Below, piece by piece: positions 1 through 64,000 of a stretch of 64,000 nucleotides of DNA (the stretch's first letter is position 1; each line of letters opens with the position of its first letter). The translations under genes and the position numbers were made by a program. Below the pieces are notes generated by a model. The model saw nothing but the letters and a program-made list of their open reading frames with translations, was not told the origin of the DNA and did not search any database. The DNA comes from a virus (taxonomy: Duplodnaviria > Heunggongvirae > Uroviricota > Caudoviricetes), in IMG/VR virus record IMGVR_UViG_2630968701_000002. The stretch is one strand, 5' to 3'.

Positions 1-560
1 GAAATGAGCTTTTTAATCTTTCCATTTTCAATGTATACAAAATCTACGATATCTTCATCTTTTTCTTTTAAAGAAATCGGAATGTCTTCAAGTGTATCAT
101 CATTAAACCGGAAAAACATATTATAAACGGAATCTGTTACAGAGGTGGCATTGAATATAAAGTATGGATATTTTTTCTCATCTAATGCAGAAATATCTTT
201 TCGAATCTTATCATACCATTCAATTAGGTCCATATTATCTGGATGATAATATCTAACATCTTCCATAAAAAACTTTTGAATGCAATCAGCAATAAATGTT
301 TTATCTTTTGTAAAAAATATCTGTTGGTTTACAAGCAGCCACAAAACGCGATCTTCTGTTCTTTTAGATTTTGAAACATTGCGTTCTAATTTATCCAGAT
401 TCTTTGAAGTGAACAGTACTTTATATGTATCTTTTTCATTTAAATATTTTTCTCCAAGGATTTTGTAAATCTGTGGCAGAAACAACCAAGAATTTTTGTA
501 TTGTTTTAACTCCACTGCTGTAAAATCGGATTTAATGCCATATAGGTTGGTATAGCTCAT
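1..560 (-). CDS. hypothetical protein, 5' part only; the ORF continues beyond the window start
   Basis: Minus-strand open frame from ATG (reverse complement of cat at 558-560), with AGGAGA RBS about 8 nt upstream on the minus strand. No stop before position 1. The translation is protein-like (MSYTNLYGIKSDFTAVELKQYKNSW...). Confidence 0.45.
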   Translation of the reverse strand, partial: MSYTNLYGIKSDFTAVELKQYKNSWLFLPQIYKILGEKYLNEKDTYKVLFTSKNLDKLERNVSKSKRTEDRVLWLLVNQQIFFTKDKTFIADCIQKFFMEDVRYYHPDNMDLIEWYDKIRKDISALDEKKYPYFIFNATSVTDSVYNMFFRFNDDTLEDIPISLKEKDEDIVDFVYIENGKIKKLI

Positions 561-1116
561 TTCTTTTTCTCCTTTCTATCTTTTTCTTTTTGTTTTTCTT
601 CTTTGAATTTTGGTTTTTCTTTTTAGGTCTCTTTTTCGGTTTTTTCTTTTTGTTATGTTCTAGATTATCGTCAGAATTGGGATTATTCTTTCTTTTTTGT
701 AATTCTTCATGATATTCCAAATGGTCTTCATAAGAATCATGAAAAATACTGAAGTGGACAACGGCGATTAAAACAACTACTATTTCCAAATATCCAATGA
801 TTATGATGGAAGCTATCAAATCCATCGGATAAAAGCCTGCTTTCACTACACTTAACTGTAGTCCTATTACTTCACAGAGATAAAAAAAGAATTTAGTTTT
901 GTCCAAGCTTGCTTCCAAAATATAATGATCCTCTTGCAGTCGATTATAAACAGGATGATTCCATTTTTTACTTCCGCTAACACCAATCGAATTAAAGTAA
1001 CGGTCTATCTTTTTATCAGTCATGATATCATCTATTTTAATTATGATTTCACTAACGATAGAAAGAATGAATCCCACAATTCCCATGTACAAAAATATAA
1101 AATCCAAAGTATCCAT
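532..1116 (-). CDS. hypothetical membrane protein with Lys-rich C-terminal tail
   Basis: 194-aa ORF with hydrophobic N-terminal segments. The K-rich tail is encoded by a T-rich tract and could be over-extension. Confidence 0.4.
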   Translation of the reverse strand: MDTLDFIFLYMGIVGFILSIVSEIIIKIDDIMTDKKIDRYFNSIGVSGSKKWNHPVYNRLQEDHYILEASLDKTKFFFYLCEVIGLQLSVVKAGFYPMDLIASIIIIGYLEIVVVLIAVVHFSIFHDSYEDHLEYHEELQKRKNNPNSDDNLEHNKKKKPKKRPKKKNQNSKKKNKKKKIERRKRNELYQPIWH

Positions 1117-1145
1117 AGTTTATTTCCCCTTTCTCTTTCTTTTTT

Positions 1146-1514
1146 TCATTTTAAATATGAGAGTAAATCTTGTATTACATAACGCAGAGAACAGATATAA
1201 AATCCTATCATGAATGAAATTATTATAAATCTGCGATAAAATAAATTTGATTCATTAATATCGTTGATAACAAGCGGAGAGATAAATATAAAAAAACAAA
1301 TGCCGGATGAAATTCCATAAAATGATTTTAAATTCCATAAACAGTTTTTTAGTTTCTTATATCCCTCATTCATGCATTTTCTTACAATAGGATTTTTTGT
1401 TTTGGATAGATTATTTACCAGTATTTGACGTTCTCTATATTCTATAATTTCACATATGATCAAACAAATTGTAAAAGAAATCTGGATGAATTCAAAAATC
1501 AAGTATATTGACAT
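1146..1514 (-). CDS. hypothetical small membrane protein
   Basis: 122-aa ORF with hydrophobic stretches. Ends with TGA. A cassette motif (taaatatgaga) lies at 1151-1165. Confidence 0.45.
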   Translation of the reverse strand: MSIYLIFEFIQISFTICLIICEIIEYRERQILVNNLSKTKNPIVRKCMNEGYKKLKNCLWNLKSFYGISSGICFFIFISPLVINDINESNLFYRRFIIISFMIGFYICSLRYVIQDLLSYLK

Positions 1515-1637
1515 CTTTGTGTATTACTCCTTTTATTTTAAATATGAAAGAAAATCTAGAAAGAAAAAAATCACATATAAAAAAAAGAGGCCAGTTAAGG
1601 CCTCTTTCAAAAAAGTATGATATGTGTTTTGAATTAA

Positions 1638-2446: not shown

Positions 2447-3004
2447 TTAATTCAAAAATTCTGTATAATCTTTATTATGAAATTTTGCGCTTTCATAATG
2501 AAAATTACAATCAGTAAGTAAATCTTCAATTTTCTTTCTGCATTTATTTGCTTTATGTAATTTTGCTAGTTCTGTCAGATCTCTTTTTGAAAATGACCAG
2601 TCTAGTGGTCCTGATAACTCAGATCCTCTTTTCACAGATTTTAATGCAGCTAAGAAATCATTTCTGATTTCAACATTTCTTTCCAATTTATCGAAATTCA
2701 GATAATCTTGCAGAATTTTATCTCCATATGGATTTGCTTTAATCGTAGAAATGATTTCATCTTTACTTTCAGGAAAACTTACCATAATTTCTGAAATGTC
2801 AGTCTGCAACCACATGGAAGCCTGGAATAATTCAGGCTCCGCATTTATTTCAAGCTCTGGAAAATATTTTTTGCAAAGATAAAGATCCAAATCTTTCATA
2901 TTCTGCAAAATTTCTTGCTTAACTTTACGCTCATGCTCTCTGCATTCAATTTCGCTTTCAAATGTTATCTCATCATCTGCGATATAAATCATCTTTGTTC
3001 TCAT
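2447..3004 (-). CDS. hypothetical protein, paralog of 17342-17968
   Basis: 185 aa. Shares the C-terminal motif LTELAKLHKANKCRKKIEDLLTDCNFHYESAKF with 17342-17968 (LCELAKLHKADCYRTQIEDLLTTDNYHELCARF). Confidence 0.5.
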   Translation of the reverse strand: MRTKMIYIADDEITFESEIECREHERKVKQEILQNMKDLDLYLCKKYFPELEINAEPELFQASMWLQTDISEIMVSFPESKDEIISTIKANPYGDKILQDYLNFDKLERNVEIRNDFLAALKSVKRGSELSGPLDWSFSKRDLTELAKLHKANKCRKKIEDLLTDCNFHYESAKFHNKDYTEFLN

Positions 3005-4201: not shown

Positions 4202-4468
4202 CTAATTAAATTGTTTTAAATCAGAAATGGTTTCTCTGATCATTTCCTGAGCATAAGGATCCCTTTTTGCTCTTTCATCAAGATATTCAACTTCATATGT
4301 TGCAAGATCAATCTTAGCAATTACAGATCCTTCCTCATTAGGATTTTTTGTTTTCCAAGCATCAATGTAAACTTTATGATCTTCTTCATCAACAAAATTG
4401 TTTCTAATTTCTCTGTATTTTGATATCTGTTTCATATTTTTCTCCTTATTCATTTTTAACAAAATCAA
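4202..4468 (-). CDS. hypothetical protein
   Basis: 88-aa ORF. Confidence 0.45.
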   Translation of the reverse strand: MILLKMNKEKNMKQISKYREIRNNFVDEEDHKVYIDAWKTKNPNEEGSVIAKIDLATYEVEYLDERAKRDPYAQEMIRETISDLKQFN

Positions 4469-4709
4469 TATTTTCTTTTAAACACAAAGGGTTAGAATTC
4501 GCATAGTCTGTGATTCCCCAGCTATTAAGATATTCGCCATCTTTATCTATAAACAATGCGATATCTGAAAGAATGTCTTCTTCATCTGGAAGCTTCGTTT
4601 CATCATCGAGCATGGAAGATTCCTTTAACAGAATCTCCCGTGTTTCTTTACAATATTTGATAAAAGATATTACTTTCTCTTTTCCCTTTTTGGTTAATTG
4701 GTATTCCAT
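4446..4709 (-). CDS. hypothetical protein, member of paralog family (Y-x-LT-x-KG-E-K...EF...C..KR N-terminal motif)
   Basis: Begins MEYQLTKKGKEKVISFIKYCKETR, similar to the starts of 4721-5200, 5387-5902, 5890-6234 and 6231-6560. Confidence 0.5.
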   Translation of the reverse strand: MEYQLTKKGKEKVISFIKYCKETREILLKESSMLDDETKLPDEEDILSDIALFIDKDGEYLNSWGITDYANSNPLCLKENIDFVKNE

Positions 4710-4720
4710 AGTTAGTCTCC

Positions 4721-5200
4721 TTATAAAAGTTCACGTACTTGTGCGACCAAATCAAAATATTCCGTTCCATAAATCTTTGCATCATTTCCGTCATCATGAC
4801 GATGCCCCTCTTCCGTCGGATCATTGCATGGAATTTCGATATTTTTTTCATCTAAAAGATTTTCAAAAACATCAACGATATCTTCTGCAAGATGTTCTTT
4901 ATTGATCGCGTCATCGATAATTGACTGTTTCTCACATTTGATGAAATCAGCCTCATAGATCAAAGTAAGTTCTCCTCGGAAATGATCTGTAATAAGAACA
5001 GAATACGTGTGCTTCTTTAAATCTGAAGCATGAAAATAATTGATAGATAACAAAATATCCTTTGCACTGAGATTTCTTGCATTATCGATCAGATCATCGG
5101 TATCAATACCTTCCTCAACCATTCTCTTGCGTTTTTCAACGCAAGACTGAATGAAGTGTTCAACTTTTCTTTCTCCATTTTTTGTAAATACATAATTCAT
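4721..5200 (-). CDS. hypothetical protein, same paralog family
   Basis: Begins MNYVFTKNGERKVEHFIQSCVEKRKR. Confidence 0.5.
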   Translation of the reverse strand: MNYVFTKNGERKVEHFIQSCVEKRKRMVEEGIDTDDLIDNARNLSAKDILLSINYFHASDLKKHTYSVLITDHFRGELTLIYEADFIKCEKQSIIDDAINKEHLAEDIVDVFENLLDEKNIEIPCNDPTEEGHRHDDGNDAKIYGTEYFDLVAQVRELL

Positions 5201-5215
5201 AGTCTTTCTCCTTTA

Positions 5216-5371
5216 CTACCACTGAGATTCTTTGTCGAAAACCATAATGTCATCTTCTGTTAAACCTGTTTCTCCACAGATTTCGGACAATCTAACATTC
5301 ATTGCATCTTCGCCAATAATTTCTTCCCAGACTTGCTCCTTTTTAAAGGTATAACATAAAATAAATCTCAT
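5216..5371 (-). CDS. small hypothetical protein (51 aa)
   Basis: ATG with GGAGAA RBS. Translation MRFILCYTFKKEQVWEEIIGEDAMNVRLSEICGETGLTEDDIMVFDKESQW. Below the length cutoff of the ORF track. Confidence 0.3.
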   Translation of the reverse strand: MRFILCYTFKKEQVWEEIIGEDAMNVRLSEICGETGLTEDDIMVFDKESQW

Positions 5372-5386
5372 AATTTTTCTCCTTTA

Positions 5387-5902
5387 CTATTTCACAATAT
5401 TTCCATCATAATCTACTTTTGAATTTTCCATACCGGAATAGTTGTTCTCTACAATGTCCATCAGAACATAGTATAATGATGAGTTTTTTACTCCTTGAAT
5501 TTGCTCTTCCAGAGAATTCAACTCTTTTTTGTAAGAATCTGCAGAAGCATCAAAATCCATATCAAGCGACATATTGAAAAGAACATTTGCCATTCTTTTG
5601 CATTCAGGATCTTCACTAACAAACGGAATAGACTCAAAGTCTTCAATATCTTTTAATATGATCACGCCTGTATAATGATCGGTAATATGCCATTTACTGG
5701 AATAATATCTGTCGCCTATATTCCAAACGTTTGTTTCAAAATGGTTTCCAGAATTGATATCATATAAGATATCCTCTTCTCTTGGAAATATTGTCTTTTT
5801 TGCAGTATCCCTTCCAGTATTTAATAGAAATTCTCGTTTCCTTCGACACTCTTTAAGAAATTCACCAATTTTTTCTTTTCCTTTTTCTGTTAATTGATAC
5901 AT
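5387..5902 (-). CDS. hypothetical protein, same paralog family
   Basis: Begins MYQLTEKGKEKIGEFLKECRRKREFLL. Confidence 0.5.
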   Translation of the reverse strand: MYQLTEKGKEKIGEFLKECRRKREFLLNTGRDTAKKTIFPREEDILYDINSGNHFETNVWNIGDRYYSSKWHITDHYTGVIILKDIEDFESIPFVSEDPECKRMANVLFNMSLDMDFDASADSYKKELNSLEEQIQGVKNSSLYYVLMDIVENNYSGMENSKVDYDGNIVK

Positions 5903-6234
5903 GTTTTCTCCTTATCTTCTATGAAATCTGTTCCATATTTCAGTTCCAAAGAGACATATATACTATGCTTCTTAGAAAGGCACCAATCTCTCATGTAGTA
6001 CTTGTCTCCAACATACCAAACGTCTTCAAGAAATCTTTCTCCAGAATTGATTTCATCTAGAATTATTTCTCTTGTTGGTAATTCTACATGATCAACACAA
6101 TCAGTGTAATGCCCGCTTAATGCTCGATAGTATTCTGAAATCTTCTTATATCTTTTACGGCATTCCTCAACAAATTCAGAGACATTTTTTTCGCCTTCTT
6201 TTGTCAGTTGATACATATTTTCTCCTTTCATCAT
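5890..6234 (-). CDS. hypothetical protein, same paralog family
   Basis: Internal MYQLTKEGEKNVSEFVEECRKRY. Overlaps the downstream gene by 13 nt. Confidence 0.5.
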   Translation of the reverse strand: MMKGENMYQLTKEGEKNVSEFVEECRKRYKKISEYYRALSGHYTDCVDHVELPTREIILDEINSGERFLEDVWYVGDKYYMRDWCLSKKHSIYVSLELKYGTDFIEDKEKTCIN

Positions 6235-6560
6235 AAAAAACTATAAGCTTTCACAAAATGTTTTTTGTACAGTAATTTGATCTGCATACTGTGATCTTTT
6301 GTCACATTCCAATCGGAAACATATTCTGGATTTTCTCTGACGATGACCGTCTGATCGATATCTTTCAAAATAGCTTCTTTTGTTGGTAGTTTTACAGCAT
6401 CTGATTCAGCATTTAACAGTTCTTTCTGTTTGATCTGACATTTGTTTATAAATTCCTGTACAACTTTTTCTCCTTCTTCTGTAAATTCAAAATTATCATT
6501 GTATTCAGATTCAAAATCTACATCTTCAAAATCTTCAAAATTAATTTCTTCAAAATTCAT
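6231..6560 (-). CDS. hypothetical acidic protein, same family
   Basis: Contains FTEEGEKVVQEFINKCQIKQKELL. Start overlaps the upstream stop (ATGA). Confidence 0.5.
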   Translation of the reverse strand: MNFEEINFEDFEDVDFESEYNDNFEFTEEGEKVVQEFINKCQIKQKELLNAESDAVKLPTKEAILKDIDQTVIVRENPEYVSDWNVTKDHSMQIKLLYKKHFVKAYSFL

Positions 6561-7513: not shown

Positions 7514-7544
7514 GGTTATATCCTGTGAAGCCTCACACGACTAA

Positions 7545-7800
7545 AGTCGCGTGCTTCCCCTTAAGTATGTATATACATACGTAGTCTCTTTAGGAGACGG
7601 GGACTTCATTTCTACAGATACAGCCAAAACTCAGAATTCTTATGACACGAAGGACATAAGCTCCGCATTCAGGCTAATTAACGTAGACCATGTGCAGGTG
7701 CTTCTCTTACTGCATGGAGGAACTTTTGCCTCCATGAGCAACCTCTCATTCTCAGGCAAGGATTTTAAGATCTCCCGGATAAAATACCGGGCTCCGATGT
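7545..7800 (-). ncRNA. candidate TnpB omega/right-end RNA overlapping the tnpB 3' end and the RE
   Basis: Established knowledge: the TnpB guide RNA derives from the 3' end of tnpB plus the RE. This stretch is GC-rich with hairpin-forming segments (cacgactaaagtcgcgtg). Confidence 0.4.
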
Positions 7801-8981
7801 TATAAGATGCGGAAAGATCGCAGTTGTAGACTTTTCCGTTCTGGAACTGGCAGACACTGTAAGATGAAAATCCTGCATGTTTTCCGCGCAGGACTCGTCC
7901 ACTTCCATCATAAGCCAGTCTGGAAGTGTTCCAGGCGCAGATCCGGGCAATATGCATTCCCAGACGATGCGCTTTATCCGTTACGACCCTCTGGACTTCC
8001 TGACTCTTCCACAGGTGCAGCCGCTGTTTTCTGGAACCGCGTTTCTTTCCTTTCTTTTCTAAATATTCAAAGACGATGGCGTCTGCGTTGTAAAGGACTG
8101 CGATATCCATGATAAACTTTGCAGTTTTGACAGAGATTTCATGATTGATCCCGTTCACTTTTGCCCATAACCTCGGCATCTTGCGGTTTCCATGCTGTTG
8201 TGCTTTCTTGATCCGGTTGATGCTGTGCGTCAGACAGTCTTGTTCCTTTGGAAGTTTTAAAAAATGCCTTCCAAGGATAGTGCCGTCACTACGCATCACA
8301 CTGATCGTTGCAGCAGCGTTGATTCCAAGATCGACCGCACAGATGATCCGGTCCGCAACGTCTGTATCACATAATTCGATATATTCTTTCATAGGAAAAT
8401 CCAGGAACCATTCATCTCCACGCTTCTGCAGGATCGGAGAACAATGTTTCCTTGCCTTGCATCTGCGTTCGATATAATCCATGTCAGATCTTCGGAGCTT
8501 GATCGTCAGCCAGTCCCAGGTGTTGCGGATATAGACTTTGATCCTTGCTTCATATTTTCCAATCTGCTGATACATATTTCCACGATACATACATGGATAA
8601 GAGTACCCAGCTTTTGGAAAGGAAGGCTTTCTTCCACGGATCTTTGGATCTTCTTCTTTCCAGTTTTTCAGATTACTTTTATAAGAAGAGACCTTGCCGA
8701 TCGCTTCATTGATCGCACTCCTTGCGAAGATAGCTTGGAAGTTTATAGAACTTCCGATCAAATGACTCATATGGCACTTCTGGGTTTTGCTTTGTCCTGT
8801 GACATAATCTCTCAACATAAATGACCGGGGAACATAAATAGTCTTCCTTGCGGATGTCTTCCCATTTCTGAAGACAAACCTGGATCATAAAATCGACAGC
8901 TTCCCGATACACAGATACTGTTTTTTTAAAGATATGATTGTAATTTTTAATTTTAGCACTGTATGTTGAAAATATCCGCAT
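7640..8981 (-). pseudogene. tnpB: tnpB (IS605 OrfB / RNA-guided nuclease), frameshifted copy
   Basis: Copy 2 is a single 446-aa ORF. Here the frame breaks near 8715, where ctccttgcgaag replaces copy 2's ctcctacgaag (a 1-nt indel), giving ORFs of 91 aa and 392 aa. RuvC-like motifs (AVDLG) and a C-terminal zinc finger (CQFQNGKVYNCDLSASYNIGARY) are present. Confidence 0.8.
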
Positions 8982-9147
8982 ATCGAACAGCTCCTTTCTT
9001 ATTTTTCCTCTTTCCTTAAATATGAGATTTATGAAAAAAAATATCTTTCATATATAAAAATCTTCTTCTTTGAAAGGAAACGTTACCTAACTCATGACTA
9101 AAGTCACGAGAGTGCGGTGACTGTTCTTCAAACTTATTTTTTTTTCA

Positions 9148-9222
9148 ATTTAAATATGAAGGATTTTAAAGAAACGGTTTTTCACATATAAAAAAAAGAG
9201 AGCCGAAGCTCTCCTTTTTTAT
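9148..9222 (-). promoter_or_regulatory. conserved intergenic cassette copy
   Basis: Plus-strand text ttaaatatgaaggattttaaagaaacggtttttcacatataaaaaaaagagagccgaagctctcc. Confidence 0.55.
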
Positions 9223-9695
9223 GAATCATATTCTTCCATCGCATCCAAAATATCATCAACATCATCAAATCCAGCGATCGGATAAGCAGTCTTTACATAA
9301 AACAGATTATTACGATCTCTGTGCAGCACTACAACAACGCTATGCACAGAAAAGATGTTTTTCCAATCTGTATGAAATGCAATTCCTTCTCCTGTGATAA
9401 GTTCAGAAGAAATGCTTAACTCAATATATGCTTCTACATCCTTTTTGATCCAGTTTTTGATTTCCTGATAATTTTCAGCAACCGTTCTTCTGATCCAATA
9501 TAATGCATTTTCTTTGGATAAGAATCTTGTTGCCATTTTAATATTACCAGGGGCAGGACGATGCATAGACAAGATTTTTGGAACTAATGCTTCTTTTGAA
9601 ATCGCATGTTCTTTAATTGCATGTCCTTTTGCTTCGTGGATATCGAAATATAATTCATTGTCATGGATCTGGTCGATCACTTCTTTCACAGTCAT
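9219..9695 (-). CDS. hypothetical protein
   Basis: 158-aa ORF. Confidence 0.45.
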   Translation of the reverse strand: MTVKEVIDQIHDNELYFDIHEAKGHAIKEHAISKEALVPKILSMHRPAPGNIKMATRFLSKENALYWIRRTVAENYQEIKNWIKKDVEAYIELSISSELITGEGIAFHTDWKNIFSVHSVVVVLHRDRNNLFYVKTAYPIAGFDDVDDILDAMEEYDS

Positions 9696-10143: not shown

Positions 10144-10872
10144 TTATCTCCCTGCCCAATCTACTTTAATATTGTATTCTTCGCAAAGCTCCTCAAATAC
10201 ATCTTCCATAACCAGAAATTTTCCCTGGCAAAAATCATTACTTGCCAGCCCAAGATTACTTTCGAATCCATTGACAAAAATATGTTCTAATGATCCATCG
10301 TAATCGATAATACATTTATTTCGAACATCTTCCAGAAATTCTTTTCCATCAAATAAATCTTCTTTTTCAATATCGCAGTTATTTGATTTTTGTACATCTT
10401 CTGGTTTTACATGATACAATTCTCCATTTTCTCCACAAGCAAAAAGAACTATTTTTTTTGTCTGATATATTATAGGAGTATCTAATTTCTCATTAACTGA
10501 ATTTTTCCAATGCGCTTTAATGTTATACTCTTCACAAAGTTCCGCAAAAAGATTTTCTGTAAGTAAAAAATTTCCCTGACTGAAATCGGAACTTATCAGT
10601 CCAAGATTGCTTTCATATCCATCTACAAAAATATGTGATAAAGTGCCATTATCATTTGTGATAAGCCTGTTTCGTACATTTTCCAAAAATTTTTTCCCAT
10701 CGATCAAATCTTTCTCATCTATGTCATGTGTATGAAACATTTCTTGAAAATCTTCTTTTTCGGAATTAGAGCTTAAATTTTTAGTTAGTGCTTTCATATC
10801 CCATTTCCTTGTATACAATTCTCCTTCTTTTCCATAGGCGAATAGGAGTAAGCCTTTTGATTTATATTTCAT
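10144..10872 (-). CDS. hypothetical protein with two internal ~120-aa repeats
   Basis: Repeat unit: LFA.G.EGELY...DLIDGK.FLE.VRN..I....G.L.HIFV.G.ESNLGL.S.DF.QG.FL..E..F.ELCEEYNIK. Confidence 0.5.
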   Translation of the reverse strand: MKYKSKGLLLFAYGKEGELYTRKWDMKALTKNLSSNSEKEDFQEMFHTHDIDEKDLIDGKKFLENVRNRLITNDNGTLSHIFVDGYESNLGLISSDFSQGNFLLTENLFAELCEEYNIKAHWKNSVNEKLDTPIIYQTKKIVLFACGENGELYHVKPEDVQKSNNCDIEKEDLFDGKEFLEDVRNKCIIDYDGSLEHIFVNGFESNLGLASNDFCQGKFLVMEDVFEELCEEYNIKVDWAGR

Positions 10873-11249
10873 ATGATTATCCTCTTACTTTTTGTCCAAT
10901 GAACTTTAATATCATGCTTTTTGCAAAGCTCTTCGAAACAATCTTCTGTAACCAAAAAATCACCCTGATAAAAATCATTATTAGCAATTCCAAGATTACT
11001 TTCAAAACCATCTACAAAGACATGTTCTAAGATTCCAGTACGATTTGTAATCCATTTTTTTCGAACATCATGCAAAAACTCTTTTCCATCAATTAGATCG
11101 TCTTCATTGATATCATAAGTATAAAGTTTTTGTATTTCCTCTGGTTTTCCACGAAATGTTATGGCCAGGTCTACAATATTCAATTGTTTTTGGTATAATT
11201 CTCCATTTTCGCCATGTGCGAACAAGAATATTCCTTCTGCTTTATACAT
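10869..11249 (-). CDS. hypothetical protein, a single copy of the same repeat domain
   Basis: MYKAEGIFLFAHGENGELY...FVDGFESNLGIANNDFYQGDFLV. Start overlaps the upstream stop (ATGA). Confidence 0.5.
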   Translation of the reverse strand: MYKAEGIFLFAHGENGELYQKQLNIVDLAITFRGKPEEIQKLYTYDINEDDLIDGKEFLHDVRKKWITNRTGILEHVFVDGFESNLGIANNDFYQGDFLVTEDCFEELCKKHDIKVHWTKSKRIII

Positions 11250-11524: not shown

Positions 11525-11688
11525 TTCTTGTTTTCTTCTCCTTTTAATCTGCCATATACTTTATTTTCTCCTTTCTCATTATTTGTCATATTTTCAAAAT
11601 ATTTGATCCATTTCAGCAGTTTGTCATTTGCATTTTCTTTCTTAGGTCTTATGCTGCTTTTTCTGTTAGAACAGTTTCTAGGATTCAT
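11521..11688 (-). CDS. small hypothetical protein (55 aa)
   Basis: ATG at 11688 with AAGGAGG RBS. ATGA overlaps with both neighbours. Confidence 0.3.
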   Translation of the reverse strand: MNPRNCSNRKSSIRPKKENANDKLLKWIKYFENMTNNEKGENKVYGRLKGEENKK

Positions 11689-12284
11689 GAGATTTCGCCT
11701 CCTTTACAATATACCATCTGAATTTCAAAAGTTTTTGGGTCAATCTGACAGACATGAATTTTTCCATCCGCATATCTTAAGCAGCTTGCGGTTCCTCCCT
11801 TTTCTTTTTTATAATCTTTTGAAAACGGAAAAAATCCGATCACCATTTGGCTGTTATCTACCATCATCTCATTTCTGACCAACATGGCATCAATCTCTGC
11901 TTTTTCTTTTGTCATATCGAGATTTTGTGTTTCTGACACATTGATCACCTGATCAGCCAAAGCAAGCATTTTCTGATAGTCTTTCTGACCAAACATTCCG
12001 GTTTTCTTCCACAAACGTTCCTGTCCCTGAAAAGGAATGTATACAATATTTTGAATGTCGTATTCTTTTTTCAGACTGTTTACTGCCCAAAATGCCAACT
12101 GATCAAATCCCTGAGCTCCGCCTGTGATATAATTTTTAATCCCAAATTTTGCAAAACCACGAATTACTTCTTTTAGTTGATCTACGATCTTCTGATATTC
12201 CTCTTTCTTTGTGTATCCATATAATTTTGCAGGTCTTGGACCAGTAAAACAAATTGTATCAATATTTTCAAATATGTTATTCAT
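11685..12284 (-). CDS. YpsA/DUF1273-like SLOG-domain protein
   Basis: Motifs ICFTGPRP...ITGGAQGFDQLAFWAV...IPFQGQERLW. Start refined to MNNIFENI, with AGGAGA RBS. Confidence 0.5.
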   Translation of the reverse strand: MNNIFENIDTICFTGPRPAKLYGYTKKEEYQKIVDQLKEVIRGFAKFGIKNYITGGAQGFDQLAFWAVNSLKKEYDIQNIVYIPFQGQERLWKKTGMFGQKDYQKMLALADQVINVSETQNLDMTKEKAEIDAMLVRNEMMVDNSQMVIGFFPFSKDYKKEKGGTASCLRYADGKIHVCQIDPKTFEIQMVYCKGGEIS

Positions 12285-12399
12285 GCTGCATATCTCCTTT
12301 TCAAATTTTCTTTTAATATAAATATGAGAGAAATTTTCTTTTTCAAAAATCACATATAAGAAAATTGACAAAATCCTTTCAAAGCGATATTATATCTGT

Positions 12400-44139: not shown

Positions 44140-44156
44140 TAGAATCAACTTCTTTC

Positions 44157-49500: not shown

Positions 49501-49521
49501 CAACGAAAGAAGGTGATTACA

Positions 49522-54768: not shown

Positions 54769-56292
54769 TTATGACACAAAGACCAGACCCTGATTGTGAA
54801 CAACGATCTTGCATTTCTTTGCAGGGAAATCCTTGTCTCTCATTCCAACCGCCTGAAGATATTGTCCATTGCTATGCTGTCCACGCATGACATATCGAAC
54901 GCCTTGATAATAAAAGACAGCTCCTGGCATGAGACGATCCAGACGATTGTAACGCCGGATACTTTTCTTGACTTTTAACTGACTGATCATTTTTCTGGTC
55001 TGTTCTTCTCCATATCTCTCAACCTGTCGTTTTCTCCATCCCTGAAGAGAATCGTCCTTTTGTCCTTCCGCTTTTTTGCGGTTCTTGGCAATTTTCTTTC
55101 CTTCATGATAGTATGCACGAGAGGTCTGAGCTTTGATCCGGCTGCGATCCTGTCTGCGGAATTGCAGGATCTCATGCACATGATCGAACTCTGGGGCTTT
55201 CTCTGGGACATGCTGTAAAGCAAGAACTGCGATACACCAGGCATCGACCTCATGCAGCTGCTCTTCTTTTGTCTTATGATATCCAAGGGATCTTCGGACC
55301 ATGGAGGTATCTCGTCCAGAACAGTAATGAACATGTTCCTTCCCGAATTCCTGTTCCAGTCGTTTGCAGATAAATGGAATCGCCTGATTTAAGACACTGA
55401 CCGCTGCATAACGTTTGTTCAGCCCAGCTTTCTTTTTCTTCAGACGGTCCTCAAATCTTGCATCTTTATGGACTCTCTCATGACATTTGCAGCATAATCC
55501 TGCGATGTTTCCGATCGTGTTGGACCCTTGCATACTCCGTGGTACGATATGATGCCGGTGCTCGATCGGACTGTTACACATTAAACAGTGCCCATCCTGC
55601 AGATCTTCAATGGCTACGTTCAAGTCATCATAACCCTTTAACGGTCCATTCTGGAAATCGACACCACTGATGCTCGGATCTTCCAGAGATAGAAAAGCGA
55701 ACCGGTTGATCTCGATCGCGACATCGGTGATCGGCAGGAATTTCTGCATTTTATGGATCAGATTGATGTGTGTCCGCACCAGATGTTCCGCACTTGGTGT
55801 CAGCCATCCATCTTCTCGTTTTCGATTGCAAAACTTGGCTTCTGTGTTCTTGATCACATTGCATCGTACTCGTTTATCTTTTCCATACATCGGAAGTTTT
55901 CGCATCAGGAATCCAGTCTTGATCATCGTATGACATTTCTTGGCTAGTCGCTGTCTTGCCTTTCGTTCTCCATTTCTGGAAGCTCTGCGATGCTGCTTTC
56001 GTTTTTCCATCAGTTTAACGATCTCTTTATTTCTCGTTTGCACAACCGCTGCGGATAATAGTTCTCCACTCAGAGATACCACGGCCATTCCAATATTAGA
56101 ACGTCCAGGATCTTCTGCGATCGTGACTGGCTGCAAGACTGGTTTGTTTTCATAAGTTAACTGTATCGTAAAAGGGATCTGCCGGAAGACGCGTGCTCTT
56201 CCTGCCTGTAACAGTTTTTCGACATGTCTCTTTCGTTTTGTAGGCATCTGTGGATCTCCATCCATGCCTAAGACATAAATATATTCTGACAT
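54769..56292 (-). CDS. iscB: IscB (OMEGA RNA-guided nuclease)
   Basis: Start MSEYIYVLGMDGDPQMPT (PLMP-type) with GGAGG RBS. RuvC-I EDPGRSNIGMAVV. HNH CLMCNSPIEHRHHIVP...CCKCHERVH. 507 aa. Confidence 0.8.
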   Translation of the reverse strand: MSEYIYVLGMDGDPQMPTKRKRHVEKLLQAGRARVFRQIPFTIQLTYENKPVLQPVTIAEDPGRSNIGMAVVSLSGELLSAAVVQTRNKEIVKLMEKRKQHRRASRNGERKARQRLAKKCHTMIKTGFLMRKLPMYGKDKRVRCNVIKNTEAKFCNRKREDGWLTPSAEHLVRTHINLIHKMQKFLPITDVAIEINRFAFLSLEDPSISGVDFQNGPLKGYDDLNVAIEDLQDGHCLMCNSPIEHRHHIVPRSMQGSNTIGNIAGLCCKCHERVHKDARFEDRLKKKKAGLNKRYAAVSVLNQAIPFICKRLEQEFGKEHVHYCSGRDTSMVRRSLGYHKTKEEQLHEVDAWCIAVLALQHVPEKAPEFDHVHEILQFRRQDRSRIKAQTSRAYYHEGKKIAKNRKKAEGQKDDSLQGWRKRQVERYGEEQTRKMISQLKVKKSIRRYNRLDRLMPGAVFYYQGVRYVMRGQHSNGQYLQAVGMRDKDFPAKKCKIVVHNQGLVFVS

Positions 56293-56520
56293 CCTTGATG
56301 CCTCCTTTCTTTTTTTTGGTGTCATGTAGTCTCTCAGGGATCAACGGGATCCCCGCCTCGGTGGTAAGCCTGTACATGACGAATTTTTGGTCTTCTTAAA
56401 CTTGGTGTCAGCTTGACAAGGTCTGGAACTAGAGAATCCCAGAGTGTCCACTTTCCAAAGAAGATCGCTGACATCTTGTTTCTGCTCATTAACGCACTAA
56501 CTAATTCACAAAACTTCTGC
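56293..56520 (-). ncRNA. candidate IscB-2 omega RNA
   Basis: GC-rich, structured 230-nt non-coding region between the element end and the iscB start. Confidence 0.4.
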
Positions 56521-58898: not shown

Positions 58899-59795
58899 TT
58901 AGATCACTTCCTTGCTTACCTTTTGAATCAACTTTTCCACAAGAAAATCCATTGTCTCAGATTGTGTATGATTACCCTTTGTATATTCGATTAGCTCCTG
59001 ATCCATTTCCATAAGATCAATGCTTTCTACAAATTTTTCAATCATTTTAAGCTCTTCATTCTCATTGAATTTTGTAAATTCCACTTTGTTACGAAATCTT
59101 CGTTTTAATGCTTTATCAAGAATGTCTTCTCTGTTTGTTGCAGCAATTACAATCTGTCCATGTACAAGATTATCCAGACATTGCATCAGAGATATGACAA
59201 TTCGTCCCATTTCTGCATCTGGGCCGGAATTATGTTGCCTAGCTTGTCCTATACAATCAATCTCATCCAACATCAATACACATTTCATTCCTTTGCAATA
59301 ATCGAAAATTCTTGATAAATTTTGTGCCGTTTTTCCCATATATGAATCAATCAGATTAGAAAAGTTCAAATATGCATATGGAAGCCCCAATTTATATGCA
59401 ACATATCTTGCAAATTCAGTTTTTCCTGTTCCAGGAACCCCATATAGAAGCGTACTATTATGATAGGAAATGCCATATTCCATTAGTCTATCTGATACTT
59501 TTGTTCCTACAAGAATCTGATCATACAGTTTCTGTTGTTTTTCTCCAACATAATATCGATCTTCACGAAATCCGGAAACATCTTCTAATGACATATAGGC
59601 TTGAAGATTTGGAGGAAGTTCCATAAATGTTGAGTTTCCATTTTCTAAAAGTTTTTGATAGTAATTAAGATTCGCTGCGTTCTTTTTTGTTGTATCATTT
59701 TTGCAGCATACGATCGCTGCATTTTTCGCATCCTGTATTTTATTTTTCGCCAAACATTCAATAACTGAAAGCATGTTATTATCTAATCCTGCCAT
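58899..59795 (-). CDS. AAA+ ATPase
   Basis: Walker A LLYGVPGTGKTEFA. Walker B VLMLDEIDCIG. Sensor IAATNRED. Confidence 0.7.
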   Translation of the reverse strand: MAGLDNNMLSVIECLAKNKIQDAKNAAIVCCKNDTTKKNAANLNYYQKLLENGNSTFMELPPNLQAYMSLEDVSGFREDRYYVGEKQQKLYDQILVGTKVSDRLMEYGISYHNSTLLYGVPGTGKTEFARYVAYKLGLPYAYLNFSNLIDSYMGKTAQNLSRIFDYCKGMKCVLMLDEIDCIGQARQHNSGPDAEMGRIVISLMQCLDNLVHGQIVIAATNREDILDKALKRRFRNKVEFTKFNENEELKMIEKFVESIDLMEMDQELIEYTKGNHTQSETMDFLVEKLIQKVSKEVI

Positions 59796-60974: not shown

Positions 60975-61100
60975 CCCTATGGAAGGGGTTTCCAGTAGTC
61001 GTGACAGTTACCCATCTCTGACGAAATATTTCGAAAAAAAAACACCTCGCTGTCCGTACCAACTGAGGCTGGCTCACGCAACCCCTATCTCTTTTACGAG
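60975..61100 (-). ncRNA. candidate TnpB-B omega/right-end RNA
   Basis: GC-rich structured segment directly downstream of the tnpB stop. Confidence 0.35.
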
Positions 61101-62443
61101 AATACTTGTATAACTTTGATATTCTGCAAGAAAGAAAAGTCCGTGATCTTTGAGAAAGTCTCTGGAAATTTCTTTCTTAAGATATTTCCTGCGCCGATCA
61201 GATCTGCATTGAATAGGTTCCCTTCCTTATTCTGATAGAGTCCACGTTTGACTCTTGTTCCGGAAAACTTTGCCTTTTCATCATCCACTCCATACGTTGG
61301 AATATGATCTCCTGCAGTCAGATCCGCTTTTGACGTATAGCTTTCTTCCTGACTGATCACTTCGATCCCGACACGCTCTGCCTTGTACTCGATCATCTTT
61401 CGCAGCTGATAGAATGGCATCTGGACAAAGGACTGTGTATTTTTTCCAAGCTCAATACTCTGTTTCCATTGCTCATTGACTCCGATCACGATCGTAGTGA
61501 TCCCGTGAGACATACATTCCTGAACGATCCTGGAACTGATCTTGTGCATCGCATCGTGGAAGAACAGATCTCTCTTCTGATGCAATCTTCGCATCTGTTT
61601 TGTGTTCAACAATCCCATTTTTGCTGCTTCTTTCGGGTCATGTCCTTTCATTGCGATCGACCGAAGCCTTGCAAGCTGTTTGTTGTACCACTGGTTCTTT
61701 TCTTTGAGCACACCGCCTTTGTACAGCCAGCAATCTCCCTTGCTGCTCACGATGGCTGCGATGTTCTCAACACCAAGATCAATGGCACAGACCCCGGATC
61801 CCTTCACTTTTTCTTCCGGATCTGGGCATTCAAACGTGCAGGCCAATAACAGATCTCCGTAATATGGTTTTACTTTGACTTCCTTTAATCGTCCTTCCGG
61901 TCGATACGGCAGATGGATCGTTTCGTTTGTAAGAGCGAACCGCAGGATATCTCCTTCTTTGATCTTGCAGCCCTGATTGGAAAAAGTGATCGTGGAGATC
62001 GAACGCTTCTTCTTATAGTGTGGCATTTTCGGTTTTCCCAGATACTTTTCCGGATGCTTCTTATATTTTCTCAAAGAAGCTAACCAGCTGCGAAAATCAT
62101 GGACCGCTGCTTTCTGACATTCTTCTGCCGTCTGGGATGGAAGCCCTGCAAAGAAATCAGGATTATCCATCACACGCATCATCCGTTCCAGAAACTTATA
62201 ACTCAGAACAGATTTCGGACGTTTCAGGTGTGGACACAGTTCTAATGTTTCTTCGATCTCACGCTGTACTTCCAGCTCATTCTCTGTCGGATGCTCTTTC
62301 TTCCGAGAAGTAAAGTTCTGTCGGATCCGGAACAATGTCGCATTATAGAGATTGTTTGATAAGTGCATATGATGATCCAGATATTCATATAATCCGGGAT
62401 CTTTCTTCTGTTTTAATACAGTTCTTAACACTCGATATATCAT
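61094..62443 (-). CDS. tnpB: TnpB-like RNA-guided nuclease lacking the zinc-finger cysteines
   Basis: RuvC-I CAIDLGVENIA. RuvC-III NADLIGAGNI. The position normally CxxC...CxxC reads SYTSKADLTAGDHIPTYG. 449 aa. Confidence 0.7.
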   Translation of the reverse strand: MIYRVLRTVLKQKKDPGLYEYLDHHMHLSNNLYNATLFRIRQNFTSRKKEHPTENELEVQREIEETLELCPHLKRPKSVLSYKFLERMMRVMDNPDFFAGLPSQTAEECQKAAVHDFRSWLASLRKYKKHPEKYLGKPKMPHYKKKRSISTITFSNQGCKIKEGDILRFALTNETIHLPYRPEGRLKEVKVKPYYGDLLLACTFECPDPEEKVKGSGVCAIDLGVENIAAIVSSKGDCWLYKGGVLKEKNQWYNKQLARLRSIAMKGHDPKEAAKMGLLNTKQMRRLHQKRDLFFHDAMHKISSRIVQECMSHGITTIVIGVNEQWKQSIELGKNTQSFVQMPFYQLRKMIEYKAERVGIEVISQEESYTSKADLTAGDHIPTYGVDDEKAKFSGTRVKRGLYQNKEGNLFNADLIGAGNILRKKFPETFSKITDFSFLQNIKVIQVFS

Positions 62444-62604
62444 TCCCCGTCATTCCTCCTTTCTTAAGTCTTACATCTTAAATATGATAGATTTTCTGAA
62501 AGATATTTTTCATATATAAGATTCTTACATTTCAAAGGAAGCTCGCATCCATCCCCGCCCAACTTTCATTGTGGACGGGGTATTCTGCTTAGATCAATAA
62601 AAAC

Positions 62605-63600
62605 TCAAATATTTTTCTTTTCTTCATCTTGTAAATCGCCCTCTTTTCTTATGCTTCTCAATTCCTTTCCTATGAAAAACAACAGAATCAAAATAAGAAT
62701 AATCGCCATTACAATTCCGCTTTTGTCCCATTGACCAATCCAAAGCCCTGTTACAACATATTGTAATATAATAATCAAAACGTTCTCATCTTCAGCTCCT
62801 GCAAACAATACTAATAGTGTAGAAAATAAAAATGAGACCATATAAACCAGAAAATATCCATTAGGATAACAGGGCTGTAATTTTGCAGAGAACAATAAGA
62901 ACCTGTCTTTTGTATTTGTAAGTTTTTCTTTTGGTGTTTGATAGAAAGCAAAATCTTTATATAAGCGATCATATTTTGTAGATTTTATGAGACTTTTTCC
63001 ACAAACTGATCCATTCCCAAGCTCATTGGAAAACTTAAAATCAGTAATTGATTTTTTATTTTTCAAACCATAAATTGCAAGATTGTTATATTTTTTTGCA
63101 ACATCATCTAAGGAGTATGTTAAAAATACTTTCTTATGACTCTTTTGAACCACAAGACTTTTCACTGTTTTTAATTCTTGATCCGAAAATTTTTTTGGCA
63201 TCAAAAAGATTTTGTTTCCAGTAAACATAGCTGTTAATTTTCCATGATTGGAACGATAACTGATTTGACATTTTGGTTTGTATACAAAAAAAATATCTGC
63301 ACCTTTAATGTATTTATTATAGCTCTTTTCATTCGTTTCAAATTTCATATGATTTTTATCATTATAATAGTATTTCAACTGTCCTATATCTTTTTTTATG
63401 ACAAAATATTTTATATTACACTCATATTTTTGATATGAATTTTGAACGACTTTTAATTGACCCTCTGTAATTTCTTTGCCATAAAAATTACGGTCCGTTT
63501 CTATCTTATTTTGTCTCAGATTGATACAGAACATCGTAATGATTGGAATCAAAGAAATGATAACTCCAGTATATACAATTATTTTCATTATCTTTTTCAT
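62605..63600 (-). CDS. membrane protein (N- and C-terminal TM helices)
   Basis: 331-aa ORF. Confidence 0.45.
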   Translation of the reverse strand: MKKIMKIIVYTGVIISLIPIITMFCINLRQNKIETDRNFYGKEITEGQLKVVQNSYQKYECNIKYFVIKKDIGQLKYYYNDKNHMKFETNEKSYNKYIKGADIFFVYKPKCQISYRSNHGKLTAMFTGNKIFLMPKKFSDQELKTVKSLVVQKSHKKVFLTYSLDDVAKKYNNLAIYGLKNKKSITDFKFSNELGNGSVCGKSLIKSTKYDRLYKDFAFYQTPKEKLTNTKDRFLLFSAKLQPCYPNGYFLVYMVSFLFSTLLVLFAGAEDENVLIIILQYVVTGLWIGQWDKSGIVMAIILILILLFFIGKELRSIRKEGDLQDEEKKNI

Positions 63601-63628
63601 AATTAGACTCCTTTTTTTACGTATACTC

Positions 63629-64000
63629 CTACATTGTAAGTATAAGGATGACTATAAAAAATATAATTTCAAAACTGCATAATGTAATTAAGTATCCATC
63701 TGAATGATATGTTTTGACAATGTAATTCAAAAATTTAAGTTTTAAATCCATTTTCGCATCAGTGTCTTTCACATAATCCTCGGCGTCTGGGTACAAAGAG
63801 TCGTATTTTCCAGCTTTTACAAAAGTTTTTCCATATACATAGGCATTGATATTTAAATTTTTATCAGAATAAGTATAACCCGAACATACTCTCTGCCCTT
63901 TGAAATCTTTTAATTCACATTCCTGATCATCATATTCAGGATCATATTTCAAGTTATCCTGATTTTCGTCATTGATAAAAACTTTATCTTGTGTTTCTTT
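63629..64000 (-). CDS. hypothetical protein, 3' part only (frame open to the window end; the listed start is TTG, not ATG)
   Basis: The frame stays open from 63952 to 64000 with no stop. AGGATAA lies only 4 nt before the TTG. Confidence 0.35.
   Translation of the reverse strand, partial: KETQDKVFINDENQDNLKYDPEYDDQECELKDFKGQRVCSGYTYSDKNLNINAYVYGKTFVKAGKYDSLYPDAEDYVKDTDAKMDLKLKFLNYIVKTYHSDGYLITLCSFEIIFFIVILILTM

What the first reader, a model, noticed from the sequence alone, without database searches (positions are those of the whole stretch)
1..64000. Strand-biased array of ~90 small, mostly acidic ORFan genes organised in tandem paralog families
All but two protein genes are on the minus strand. 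Most are 60-300 aa with no recognisable domains, and many form local families: 4446-6560 (five members), 10144-11249, 12544-13401 with 26363-27212, 2447-3004 with 17342-17968, 28784-29755 with 29871-30815, and 42877-44591 (three). This architecture resembles arrays of immunity, anti-defence or host-takeover genes found in early regions of large phages or leading regions of conjugative elements. Consistent markers are ssb, lexA and the one-directional gene orientation. No structural phage genes, integrase or conjugation genes are present in these 64 kb, so the actual context is unresolved.
Basis: partly seen in the sequence, partly recalled or inferred. Interest (0 to 1): 0.6.

Follow-up and report, generated by a model that had tools for sequence, protein, structure and literature searches.

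The report
Giant phage-like element's one-way cassette array
The window is a real, one-directional array of about 90 small, mostly unknown genes. It is a slice of a one-way arm of at least 138 kb, part of a very large phage-like mobile element of the gut bacterium Anaerostipes hadrus, and its genes sit behind about 35 copies of a promoter-like motif found only in this element.

Summary
I count 92 non-transposon ORFs on the minus strand (median 158 aa, 58% with pI<6, about 70% without a Pfam domain). Only two credible genes lie on the plus strand, and all six claimed paralog families are confirmed.

The host is Anaerostipes hadrus. The region is strain-variable, has 32% GC against 37-38% for the host, and is absent from GTDB representative genomes, PLSDB and GenBank phages. 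It is nevertheless present in thousands of human-gut assemblies.

Contigs that overlap at 99.4-100% identity extend the array to at least 138 kb, all on one strand. Beyond the window lie PARG, PARP, Fic, RadC, Dam, a RlaP-like enzyme, YopX, RtcB, and SecY/SecA. The RlaP-like gene links the element to IMG/VR viral contigs of 150-220 kb; one of these carries terminase- and portal-like genes. It also links to large Clostridioides difficile and Clostridium botulinum plasmid-prophages.

No virion, relaxase or type IV secretion genes were seen in this element itself, so its phage status is inferred. Remnants of a conjugative element are present: a sortase and a truncated coupling protein.

New finding: a promoter-like motif specific to the element (39 hits against 9.7 expected, 37 of them on the coding strand), together with an excess of terminator-like sites (measured over 24-44 kb), divides the array into separate cassettes.

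Gene functions remain unproven. The one confident structure model had no known fold.

The parts
1..64000 (-). One-directional array of about 92 small cargo ORFs. It is a slice of an arm of at least 138 kb that continues beyond both window ends.
4446..6560 (-). Tandem paralog family A, five members sharing a domain of about 90 aa. AF2 model pLDDT 77.8. No solved-fold match. 305 clusters among 1.84 billion representative proteins.
10144..11249 (-). Paralog family B: three copies of a domain of about 120 aa in two genes.
   Evidence: model too poor to use
2447..3004 (-). Family D member; its paralog is at 17342-17968.
   Evidence: one distant hit on Butyrivibrio plasmid pCY360
12544..13401 (-). 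Family C member. Its paralog at 26363-27212 is split by a frameshift in this window; other strains carry it as an intact 273-aa gene.
27616..30815 (-). Family E paralogs (29871-30815 and 28784-29755) lie directly upstream of a defence-type ATPase (27616-28800) and overlap it. The ATPase matches PDC-M12A, AbiLi and AriA models.
42877..44591 (-). Family F: three paralogs with hydrophobic, membrane-anchor-like N-termini.
25049..25549 (-). Single-strand DNA-binding protein.
   Evidence: identical to WP_044920812.1 of A. hadrus
35332..36012 (-). Full-length LexA-type repressor (LexA_DNA_bind plus Peptidase_S24).
36276..36812 (-). YolD-like protein (weak Pfam match) just upstream of lexA.
33822..34505 (-). 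Sortase, 51% identical to the sortase of a classical ICE in the same host. The ORF at 32783-33121 is homologous to the gene that follows the relaxase in that ICE. No relaxase is present here.
46775..47716 (-). Truncated coupling-protein-like ORF. It matches only positions 66-284 of the 468-position profile, and no P-loop is evident in its sequence.
58899..59795 (-). IetA-like AAA ATPase with no IetS partner beside it.
11685..12371 (-). YpsA-SLOG protein, 38% identical to SPbeta YoqJ.
18357..19358 (-). Protein with a DUF4406 (nucleoside deoxyribosyltransferase-like) domain.
9219..9695 (-). Protein with a CdiA-CT RNase A-like toxin domain.
37003..37917 (-). Endonuclease_NS_2 DNA/RNA nuclease with a hydrophobic, signal-peptide-like N-terminus.
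7524..9151 (-). IS200/605-type TnpB element, copy 1 (ORF 7640-8818).
37964..39587 (-). IS200/605-type TnpB element, copy 2 (ORF 38080-39420), 97-99% identical to copy 1.
61094..62443 (-). A third, different TnpB.
14873..16483 (-). IscB-like protein (RRXRR plus HNH).
54769..56325 (-). Second IscB-like protein, 30% identical to the first.
49142..50901 (+). IS110 insertion on the opposite strand. Identical copies lie in the host chromosome and elsewhere in the element.
26129..26203 (-). Reference copy of the element-specific promoter-like motif. On the coding strand it reads: terminator T-run, ATATATGA, about 22 nt, ATCTCTCATATTTAA, (GTAA..ATGACGA), AGAGAAAAGGAG, ATG. About 35 copies occur across the window, for example ending at 1162, 6615, 9027, 12329, 13459, 23312, 27237, 29809, 34536, 39466, 42813, 44567, 48916 and 62489.

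Best explanation
The window is an internal 64-kb slice of a one-directional accessory ('early' or 'moron') arm of at least 138 kb. The arm belongs to a very large, temperate-phage-like mobile element of Anaerostipes hadrus.

Shown:
- The element is strain-variable, AT-richer than its host, and extremely common in human-gut assemblies.
- The same-strand array continues through PARG, RadC, Fic, PARP, Dam, RlaP, YopX, SecY/SecA and RtcB.
- A promoter-like motif of about 45 nt is confined to the element and to the coding strand. It occurs upstream of roughly 35 genes or gene groups in the window. In the 20 kb scanned, terminator-like hairpins are enriched, and the motif often follows one directly.
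- Paralog families lie in tandem.
- IS200/605 (TnpB, IscB-like) and IS110 elements have inserted, and strains differ by whole cassettes.

Inferred:
- The element is, or derives from, a large tailed phage of the kind represented by 150-220 kb IMG/VR contigs and by the big plasmidial Clostridia phages.
- The motif is read by a factor encoded or modified by the element, so the cassettes are switched on together.
- Each small product acts on its own on the host or on competing elements: counter-defence, nucleic-acid or nucleotide modification, exclusion, toxin/immunity, or envelope remodelling.
- Families grow by local duplication and diverge under conflict-driven selection.
For: Host and mobility. 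Window proteins are annotated in NCBI as A. hadrus. The window's IS110 has identical copies next to EF-Tu and rpoC of A. hadrus. GC is 32% against 37-38% for the host. The tested window protein (532-1116) is absent from GTDB representative genomes. Strains are mosaic.

Continuity. The tiling path window-L011-L048-L183-L194-L195-L196-L258 holds at 99.4-100% identity. All of it is on one strand.

Phage link. The RlaP-like gene has 105 relatives in IMG/VR, mostly on 150-220 kb contigs, and one contig fragment is 100% identical. It is 49% identical to Clostridioides phage AR1086-1 and 48-52% to C. botulinum and C. difficile plasmid-prophages. AR1086-1 has the same layout: a structural module followed by a 67-kb one-way arm of small genes (PMC5786514). 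One relative, UViG_3300045988_154529, carries RlaP and, 8 kb further on the same strand, homologues of the AR1086-1 terminase and portal. RtcB, NrnB, NrdDG and DnaE are shared between the AR1086-1 arm and these contigs. There are also homologues of SPbeta YoqJ, YopX and YolD.

Cassette structure. The motif gives 39 hits against 9.7±3.2 expected, 37 on the coding strand. Its density is 2-4 per 10 kb in the window, its flanks and its own viral contig, against about 0 in 170 kb of host chromosome, in the co-resident ICE and in relatives. Terminator-like sites number 22 against 5.8±2.4 expected, mostly on the coding strand in intergenic gaps.
Against: No terminase, portal, capsid or tail gene was found in about 138 kb of this element; its own viral contig ends at an IS110 copy.

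Window proteins have essentially no homologues in AR1086-1 or in GenBank phages, apart from YoqJ-like and one family-A hit. A window protein (62605-63600) is absent from IMG/VR.

Some content is unusual for a phage: a sortase and a downstream gene (32783-33121) related to those of an ICE, a coupling-protein fragment, a SecY/SecA pair, a P-type ATPase, and large LPXTG-type surface proteins upstream in one strain.

The IMG/VR label is a computational call. The motif's role as a promoter is inferred from position and consensus only. No gene function was tested.
Confidence: 0.55

Rival explanations
1. Cargo or leading region of a giant conjugative or integrative element (ICE or megaplasmid) of Lachnospiraceae. 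Its small genes would be expressed on entry into a recipient to blunt defences. The phage-like genes would be shared conflict genes, and the IMG/VR calls would be false positives.
For: The sortase is 51% identical to that of a classical ICE in the same host, and 32783-33121 matches the gene that follows that ICE's relaxase. There is a coupling-protein-like ORF. ssb is present and orientation is uniform. Domains typical of polyvalent conflict proteins occur: LPD1, RadC, DUF4314, PARP, Fic, and YodL in one strain. Adhesin-type surface proteins and SecY/SecA are present.
Against: No relaxase, VirB4, or replication or partition module occurs in about 138 kb. The coupling protein lacks its N-terminal part. 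PLSDB has no relative of the ORFans. One relative of the RlaP block carries terminase and portal homologues. Cassettes have their own terminators, rather than forming the long operons typical of Gram-positive transfer regions.
Confidence: 0.22
2. A decayed, no longer mobile chromosomal island. It would have been built by successive accretion of phage, ICE and IS fragments at one site in A. hadrus.
For: The element lies inside contigs of 1.0-1.85 Mb. There is a truncated coupling protein, a frameshifted gene (26363-27212), and six IS-type genes in 64 kb. No mobility module has been seen.
Against: Identity is 98-100% across many unrelated human samples, with intact ORFs packed at 90% coding density. 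A single promoter-like motif is conserved over the whole 138 kb and is absent from the host, which argues for one functioning unit. The tested protein (532-1116) is absent from GTDB representative genomes, including that of the species, as expected for a mobile accessory element.
Confidence: 0.15
3. Integron-like or other site-specific cassette array, in which the repeated motif is a recombination site rather than a promoter.
For: The array is one-directional, made of small ORFan cassettes that vary among strains, with a repeated intergenic element.
Against: No integron integrase is present. The motif lies upstream of each gene at a fixed distance from the ribosome-binding site, directly after a terminator. 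It does not resemble an attC hairpin. Strain breakpoints are not significantly enriched at the motif: 7 of 41 against 3.5 expected, p about 0.07.
Confidence: 0.04
4. Ordinary chromosomal region with housekeeping functions.
For: It lies within contigs of a megabase or more.
Against: There are no housekeeping genes. GC is 5 points below the host. Presence varies among strains, and the tested protein is absent from representative genomes.
Confidence: 0.01

Closest known systems
Big plasmidial siphophages of Clostridioides difficile (phiCD211 / phiCDIF1296T, phiCD5763, AR1086-1; about 130 kb)
   Same: A long one-directional arm of mostly small hypothetical genes, interspersed with replication and RNA-repair genes (DnaE, RtcB, RlaP-like) and a TnpB insertion. 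RlaP is 49% identical (PMC5786514).
   Different: The arm here is at least twice as long. None of the window's ORFans has a homologue there. No virion genes have yet been seen here. This element sits inside megabase contigs rather than being a plasmid. SecY/SecA, the sortase and the specific promoter-like motif are not shared.
Bacillus phage SPbeta (134 kb temperate phage)
   Same: A large temperate element rich in small genes of unknown function. It shares YoqJ-like (38%), YopX, YolD-like and DnaE-like genes and nuclease-type cargo.
   Different: Only scattered accessory genes are shared. No structural or recombinase homology was shown.
Host-takeover module of Bacillus phage SPO1, and phage 'moron' cassettes (from my own knowledge)
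   Same: Many small genes, each with its own strong promoter and terminator, packed in one direction.
   Different: SPO1's module is about 12 kb and uses host sigma-A promoters. Here the array is more than 10 times longer, and the motif is not the host consensus and is absent from the host chromosome. Timing of expression is unknown.
Anti-defence leading regions of conjugative plasmids (from my own knowledge of the 2024 description)
   Same: ssb, uniform orientation, small acidic ORFans, orphan methyltransferase nearby.
   Different: No oriT, relaxase or type IV secretion system. Far larger. Cassettes carry double-strand-type promoter and terminator signals.
Clostridium botulinum group III plasmid-prophages (about 100-200 kb)
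   Same: RlaP is 50-52% identical. They are large, IS-rich, phage-like replicons of Clostridia.
   Different: Only this one gene was compared.

Membership tests
Tailed phage (Caudoviricetes) genome | Terminase large subunit, portal and major capsid genes on the same replicon | tested here: inconclusive
   None found in about 138 kb of this element. They are present in one IMG/VR relative that shares the RlaP block. The rest of the element could not be reached.
Tailed phage (Caudoviricetes) genome | Membership in a curated viral sequence collection, or gene sharing with isolated phages | tested here: met
   A 45.9-kb IMG/VR contig is 99.9-100% identical to the downstream part of the element. 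RlaP, RtcB, YopX and YoqJ-like genes are shared with isolated phages.
Leading region of a conjugative element | Adjacent oriT and relaxase, and a type IV secretion system on the element | tested here: not met
   No relaxase or VirB4-type gene appears in Pfam tables for the window and most of the flanks; part of the downstream viral contig was compared only by BLAST. The coupling-protein ORF is truncated.
Leading region of a conjugative element | ssb and anti-restriction genes in one orientation | tested here: inconclusive
   ssb and uniform orientation are met. No ArdA, PsiB or KlcA family was detected.
Integron cassette array | Integron integrase and attC sites at the 3' end of each cassette | tested here: not met
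   No such integrase is present. The repeat lies 5' of genes next to the ribosome-binding site. Breakpoints are not enriched at it.
Polymorphic-toxin immunity arrays (Imm / SUKH) | Imm or SUKH family domains, with a toxin gene upstream | tested here: not met
Known anti-phage defence systems (PADLOC) | Complete set of system genes | tested here: inconclusive
   Single components only: PDC-M12A / AbiLi-like ATPase, IetA-like ATPase without IetS, and an M78 peptidase.
IS200/605 OMEGA elements (TnpB / IscB) | RuvC-type nuclease ORF with Pfam OrfB_IS605 or RRXRR+HNH; guide RNA | tested here: inconclusive
   The protein domains are met. No Rfam RNA family was detected. Transposon ends were not mapped.

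The most novel reading that the evidence does not exclude
The element is not a conventional phage or ICE but a new class of giant mobile element, possibly exceeding 150 kb, in gut Lachnospiraceae. It would have its own transcription signal, used more than 100 times, and its own SecA/SecY export pair with a sortase. It would carry a one-way arm of at least 138 kb holding hundreds of fast-evolving ORFan cassettes: in effect a portable, separately regulated accessory genome carried by one of the commonest human gut butyrate producers.
Probability: 0.15. Interest if true: 0.8.

Novelty: new variant of a known kind. Interest (0 to 1): 0.55.

Why it matters
Anaerostipes hadrus is a prevalent human-gut butyrate producer. 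Proteins of this element appear in thousands of public gut assemblies: 2,793 collection blocks for one protein and 2,065 for the SSB. Despite that, the element is missing from reference phage, plasmid and species-representative collections. One old co-abundance bin carrying its genes is named 'Veillonella sp. CAG:933', which is probably a misattribution.

The element packs about 1.5 genes per kb, roughly 70% of them of unknown function, behind a promoter-like signal of its own. This gives a defined and testable regulon in which to look for new counter-defence, exclusion or host-manipulation proteins. The motif is a practical handle: it marks which genes belong to the programme, and it can be used to fish for the factor that reads it.

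Tried and rejected
- Near-identity DNA searches of 1-25000 and 39001-64000 against GenBank phages, and of 1-25000 against PLSDB, found nothing except a 71% TnpB hit. The downstream contig also found nothing.
- tblastn of 11 concatenated ORFans against PLSDB, and of 21 against phages, returned only DUF4406, YoqJ-like, one family-D hit and one family-A hit.
- A scan of GTDB representative genomes with 532-1116 found nothing. A scan with TnpB found only 67-75% relatives, in Lachnospiraceae, a Solobacterium MAG and one unnamed MAG.
- An IMG/VR scan with 62605-63600 found nothing.
- Walking was limited by tool rules. Several short-read contigs break just after the PARP gene. The element's own viral contig ends at IS110.
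- Literature searches for A. hadrus mobile elements found nothing relevant.
- The family B structure model was unusable (pLDDT 41). The afdb50 fold library was unavailable.
- Proteins fused to the family A domain were uninformative: one thymidylate kinase among ten tested.
- The idea that the motif mediates cassette exchange was tested and is inconclusive (p about 0.07).
- LexA (Cheo) boxes are not enriched: 1 found against 0.6 expected.
- Rfam found no RNA family.
- Sigma-70 consensus promoters are not enriched: 89 found against 101 expected.
Full report

Yes. Six-frame ORF listing and a greedy non-overlapping set give 107 ORFs of at least 45 aa covering 90% of the window, 97 of them on the minus strand. 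Only two plus-strand ORFs are credible. One is an IS110 transposase at 49438-50748. The other is a 98-aa ORF at 34979-35275 that gene callers also place on the opposite strand in every related contig.

GC is about 32% and GC skew is negative in every 2-kb bin. There are no tRNAs and no Rfam families.

Excluding five IS-type genes, there are 92 minus-strand ORFs. Median length is 158 aa and 73 lie between 60 and 300 aa. 58% have pI<6 and 34% have pI<5. Roughly 29 of 99 ORFs have any Pfam domain.

2. What is recognisable in the window?

Mobile DNA:
- Two 97-99% identical TnpB elements (7524-9151 and 37964-39587).
- A third TnpB (61094-62443).
- Two IscB-like RRXRR+HNH proteins (14873-16483 and 54769-56325).
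- An IS110 (49142-50901, plus strand).

Cargo with a name:
- SSB (25049-25549), LexA (35332-36012) and a weak YolD-like protein (36276-36812).
- Sortase (33822-34505).
- Endonuclease_NS_2 (37003-37917), HNH (39676-40254) and an RNase A-like CdiA-CT domain (9219-9695).
- YpsA-SLOG (11685-12371), DUF4406 (18357-19358) and ASCH.
- HicB-like, M78 peptidase (42237-42791), Band_7, Bax1-I, and an alpha/beta hydrolase.
- A weak radical-SAM match.
- Two defence-type ATPases: 27616-28800 (PDC-M12A 1.5e-78, AbiLi, AriA) and 58899-59795 (IetA 4e-56).
- A 313-aa ORF (46775-47716) that matches only positions 66-284 of the 468-position coupling-protein profile; no P-loop is evident in its sequence.

PHROGs gave no structural phage hit among the 25 families listed.

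3. Whose DNA is it?

Exact-sequence look-ups place the window's proteins on very many human-gut assemblies: 2,793 collection blocks for 532-1116 and 2,065 for the SSB. These include long-read contigs of 1.0-1.85 Mb. NCBI names them Anaerostipes hadrus.

The IS110 transposase has identical copies beside EF-Tu, rpoC and ribosomal protein genes on 2.3-3.6 Mb contigs. The EF-Tu on those contigs is that of A. hadrus. Host chromosome loci have 37-38% GC against 32-34% for the element.

Protein 532-1116 has no relative in the 185,579 GTDB representative genomes. Nothing close exists in PLSDB or GenBank phages.

Contigs from different people are 98-100% identical where they align, but they differ by whole cassettes and by IS presence. 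The window is closest to contig_812 of ERZ28761475. This rules out an ordinary chromosomal region.

4. How far does the array go, and what does it run into?

Upstream of the window end, another 10 kb of same-strand genes varies among strains. It holds type I restriction-modification genes, AAA_21 and SMC-like ATPases, SocA/Panacea, PemK, HD, and further TnpB and IscB copies. In one strain there are very large LPXTG-type surface proteins.

Downstream of the window start, the array continues in this order:
- HD, PARG, DUF4314, HTH, RadC, Fic, an acetyltransferase and PARP.
- A Dam methylase, a phage ProQ-C-like protein, a RlaP-like nucleotidyltransferase and YopX.
- Three short integrase-like genes and LPD1.
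- SecY plus SecA, RNase H, a P-type ATPase (identified from its DKTGTLT motif) and RtcB.
- The contig ends at another IS110 copy.

The tiling path window-L011-L048-L183-L194-L195-L196-L258 overlaps at 99.4-100% identity. That gives at least 138 kb in which essentially every gene is on one strand.

5. Phage or conjugative element?

The RlaP-like gene is a conserved marker.
- It has 105 relatives in IMG/VR, mostly on 150-220 kb contigs, and one fragment is identical to this element.
- It is 49% identical to Clostridioides phage AR1086-1.
- It is 48-52% identical to C. botulinum group III and C. difficile 130-200 kb plasmid-prophages.

In the IMG/VR relatives, 96.5% of coding sequence within ±10 kb lies on the RlaP strand.

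AR1086-1 shows the same plan: about 60 kb of large, probably structural genes (the record annotates them only as hypothetical) on one strand, then a 67-kb one-way arm of about 115 small genes with DnaE, primase, NrdDG, RtcB, RlaP and a TnpB. [quoted passage not shown]

One IMG/VR relative (UViG_3300045988_154529, 158 kb) carries RlaP and, 8 kb downstream on the same strand, weak but co-linear homologues of AR1086-1 gene 8, terminase and portal. That module recurs in about 44 other contigs.

Against this:
- I found no virion gene in the 138 kb of the A. hadrus element that I could reach.
- The window ORFans have no homologues in AR1086-1.
- ICE-derived pieces are present. The sortase is 51% identical to that of a classical ICE in the same host, and 32783-33121 matches the gene that follows that ICE's relaxase. 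The relaxase and NikA-like genes themselves are missing.
- No relaxase or type IV secretion gene appears anywhere.

I therefore rate a large temperate-phage-like element as most likely (0.55), a giant conjugative or integrative element as second (0.22), and a decayed composite island as third (0.15).

6. How is the array organised?

This is the main new result. Repeat analysis revealed an intergenic element present in dozens of copies. On the coding strand it reads: terminator stem and T-run, ATATATGA, about 22 nt of AT-rich spacer, ATCTCTCATATTTAA, often GTAA..ATGACGA, then AGAGAAAAGGAGAAAAATT-ATG.

The core TCTCATATTTR, allowing one mismatch, occurs 39 times against 9.7±3.2 expected. 37 of the 39 are on the coding strand.

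The motif density is 2-4 per 10 kb in the window, in both flanks and in the element's own viral contig. It occurs once in 170 kb of host chromosome and not at all in the co-resident ICE. It is near background in the relatives and in AR1086-1.

Terminator-like hairpins are four-fold enriched (22 against 5.8±2.4), mostly on the coding strand in the gaps. Sigma-70 consensus promoters are not enriched.

The array is therefore not one giant operon. It is about 35 cassettes, each consisting of a terminator, a promoter-like motif, a strong ribosome-binding site and one or more genes, all sharing a signal private to the element. I infer that a factor encoded or modified by the element reads this signal and switches the cassettes on together. 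This is inference from position and conservation; no expression data were available.

The hypothesis that the motif also mediates cassette exchange was tested and is not significant: 7 of 41 strain breakpoints lie within 80 nt of it against 3.5 expected, p about 0.07.

7. What do the ORFan families do?

This remains unknown. Family A (4446-6560) shares a domain of about 90 aa. The AlphaFold2 model from the five paralogs has pLDDT 77.8.
- Its one good match is an uncharacterised protein of an uncultured siphovirus (TM 0.71).
- A profile finds 305 clusters among 1.84 billion representative proteins. The domain is often fused to other unknown regions.

The family B model was unusable (pLDDT 41).

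The named cargo fits a conflict role: nucleases, ADP-ribosylation and its reversal, Fic, an orphan Dam methylase, RNA repair, defence-type ATPases, a toxin domain, a HicB-like antitoxin protein, and membrane proteins. Assigning anti-defence, exclusion or takeover roles to individual ORFans would still be speculation.

8. Verdict.

The architecture is a scaled-up variant of known phage accessory arms. Its distinctive features are a private promoter-like motif, extreme length, and a very high prevalence in the human gut that has gone unrecorded.

Noticed in passing
window 7524-9151 and 37964-39587; locus L032: Two 99% identical 1.63-kb TnpB elements lie 30.44 kb apart in direct orientation. One short-read contig (L032) joins the RNase A-like gene (9219-9695), TnpB and the Endonuclease_NS gene (37003-37917). 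That junction is expected from a tandem duplication or an excised circle of the 30-kb interval, or it may be an assembly chimera.
   Followed up: partly
window 14873-16483 and 54769-56325: Two diverged IscB-like (RRXRR+HNH) genes, plus three TnpB genes, in 64 kb. More copies lie in the flanks. No Rfam guide-RNA family was detected. The GC bumps in the composition profile coincide with these elements.
   Followed up: partly
window 49142-50901; loci L019-L028, L258: The IS110 is inserted against the direction of the array. It has identical copies at many sites in the A. hadrus chromosome, in a classical ICE, and at another site in this element. It sits at different places in different strains, so it is probably active.
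   Followed up: yes
window 26363-27212: Two overlapping ORFs (173 and 117 aa) correspond to one intact 273-aa gene in ten other strains. This window therefore carries a frameshifted copy.
   Followed up: partly
window 46775-47716: The coupling-protein-like ORF lacks the N-terminal membrane part, and no P-loop is evident in its sequence. It is nevertheless kept as a 310-313 aa ORF in several strains, followed by a 365-375 aa HTH protein. It may be a remnant or may have a new role.
   Followed up: partly
L194 10001-14936; L195 10814-13393; L196 11824-13029; L201-L204: About 37-57 kb downstream of the window start, the same element encodes a SecY/SecA pair, a P-type cation ATPase (by sequence motif), RNase H and RtcB. 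A SecY/SecA pair recurs in a related element from other samples. An export system of its own, together with the sortase and the large surface proteins (L026), is unusual for a phage.
   Followed up: partly
window 26153-26283 and 62471-62601; L194 14989-15117: A 130-nt extended version of the promoter/leader repeat (82-88% identity) occurs at three distant places in the element.
   Followed up: no
window 532-1116 (protein CCX57412.1): The identical protein is deposited under 'Veillonella sp. CAG:933', a co-abundance gene group. That bin probably represents this mobile element rather than a Veillonella.
   Followed up: no
window 33150-33161: There is a single perfect LexA (Cheo) box, GAACATATGTTC, just upstream of 32783-33121 and close to the element's own lexA and sortase. 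One site is no more than chance would give.
   Followed up: partly
L106 1-3992: In a 96%-related variant, a 1,363-aa DnaE-type polymerase sits directly upstream of the Dam-RlaP block, where this element has PARP and the window array. The window array may therefore be an expanded insertion within a replication or early arm.
   Followed up: no
L039, L040, L041, L045, L047, L050-L052: Many independent short-read contigs end 130-300 bp after the PARP gene. This suggests a repeat or a strain-variable junction at that point.
   Followed up: no
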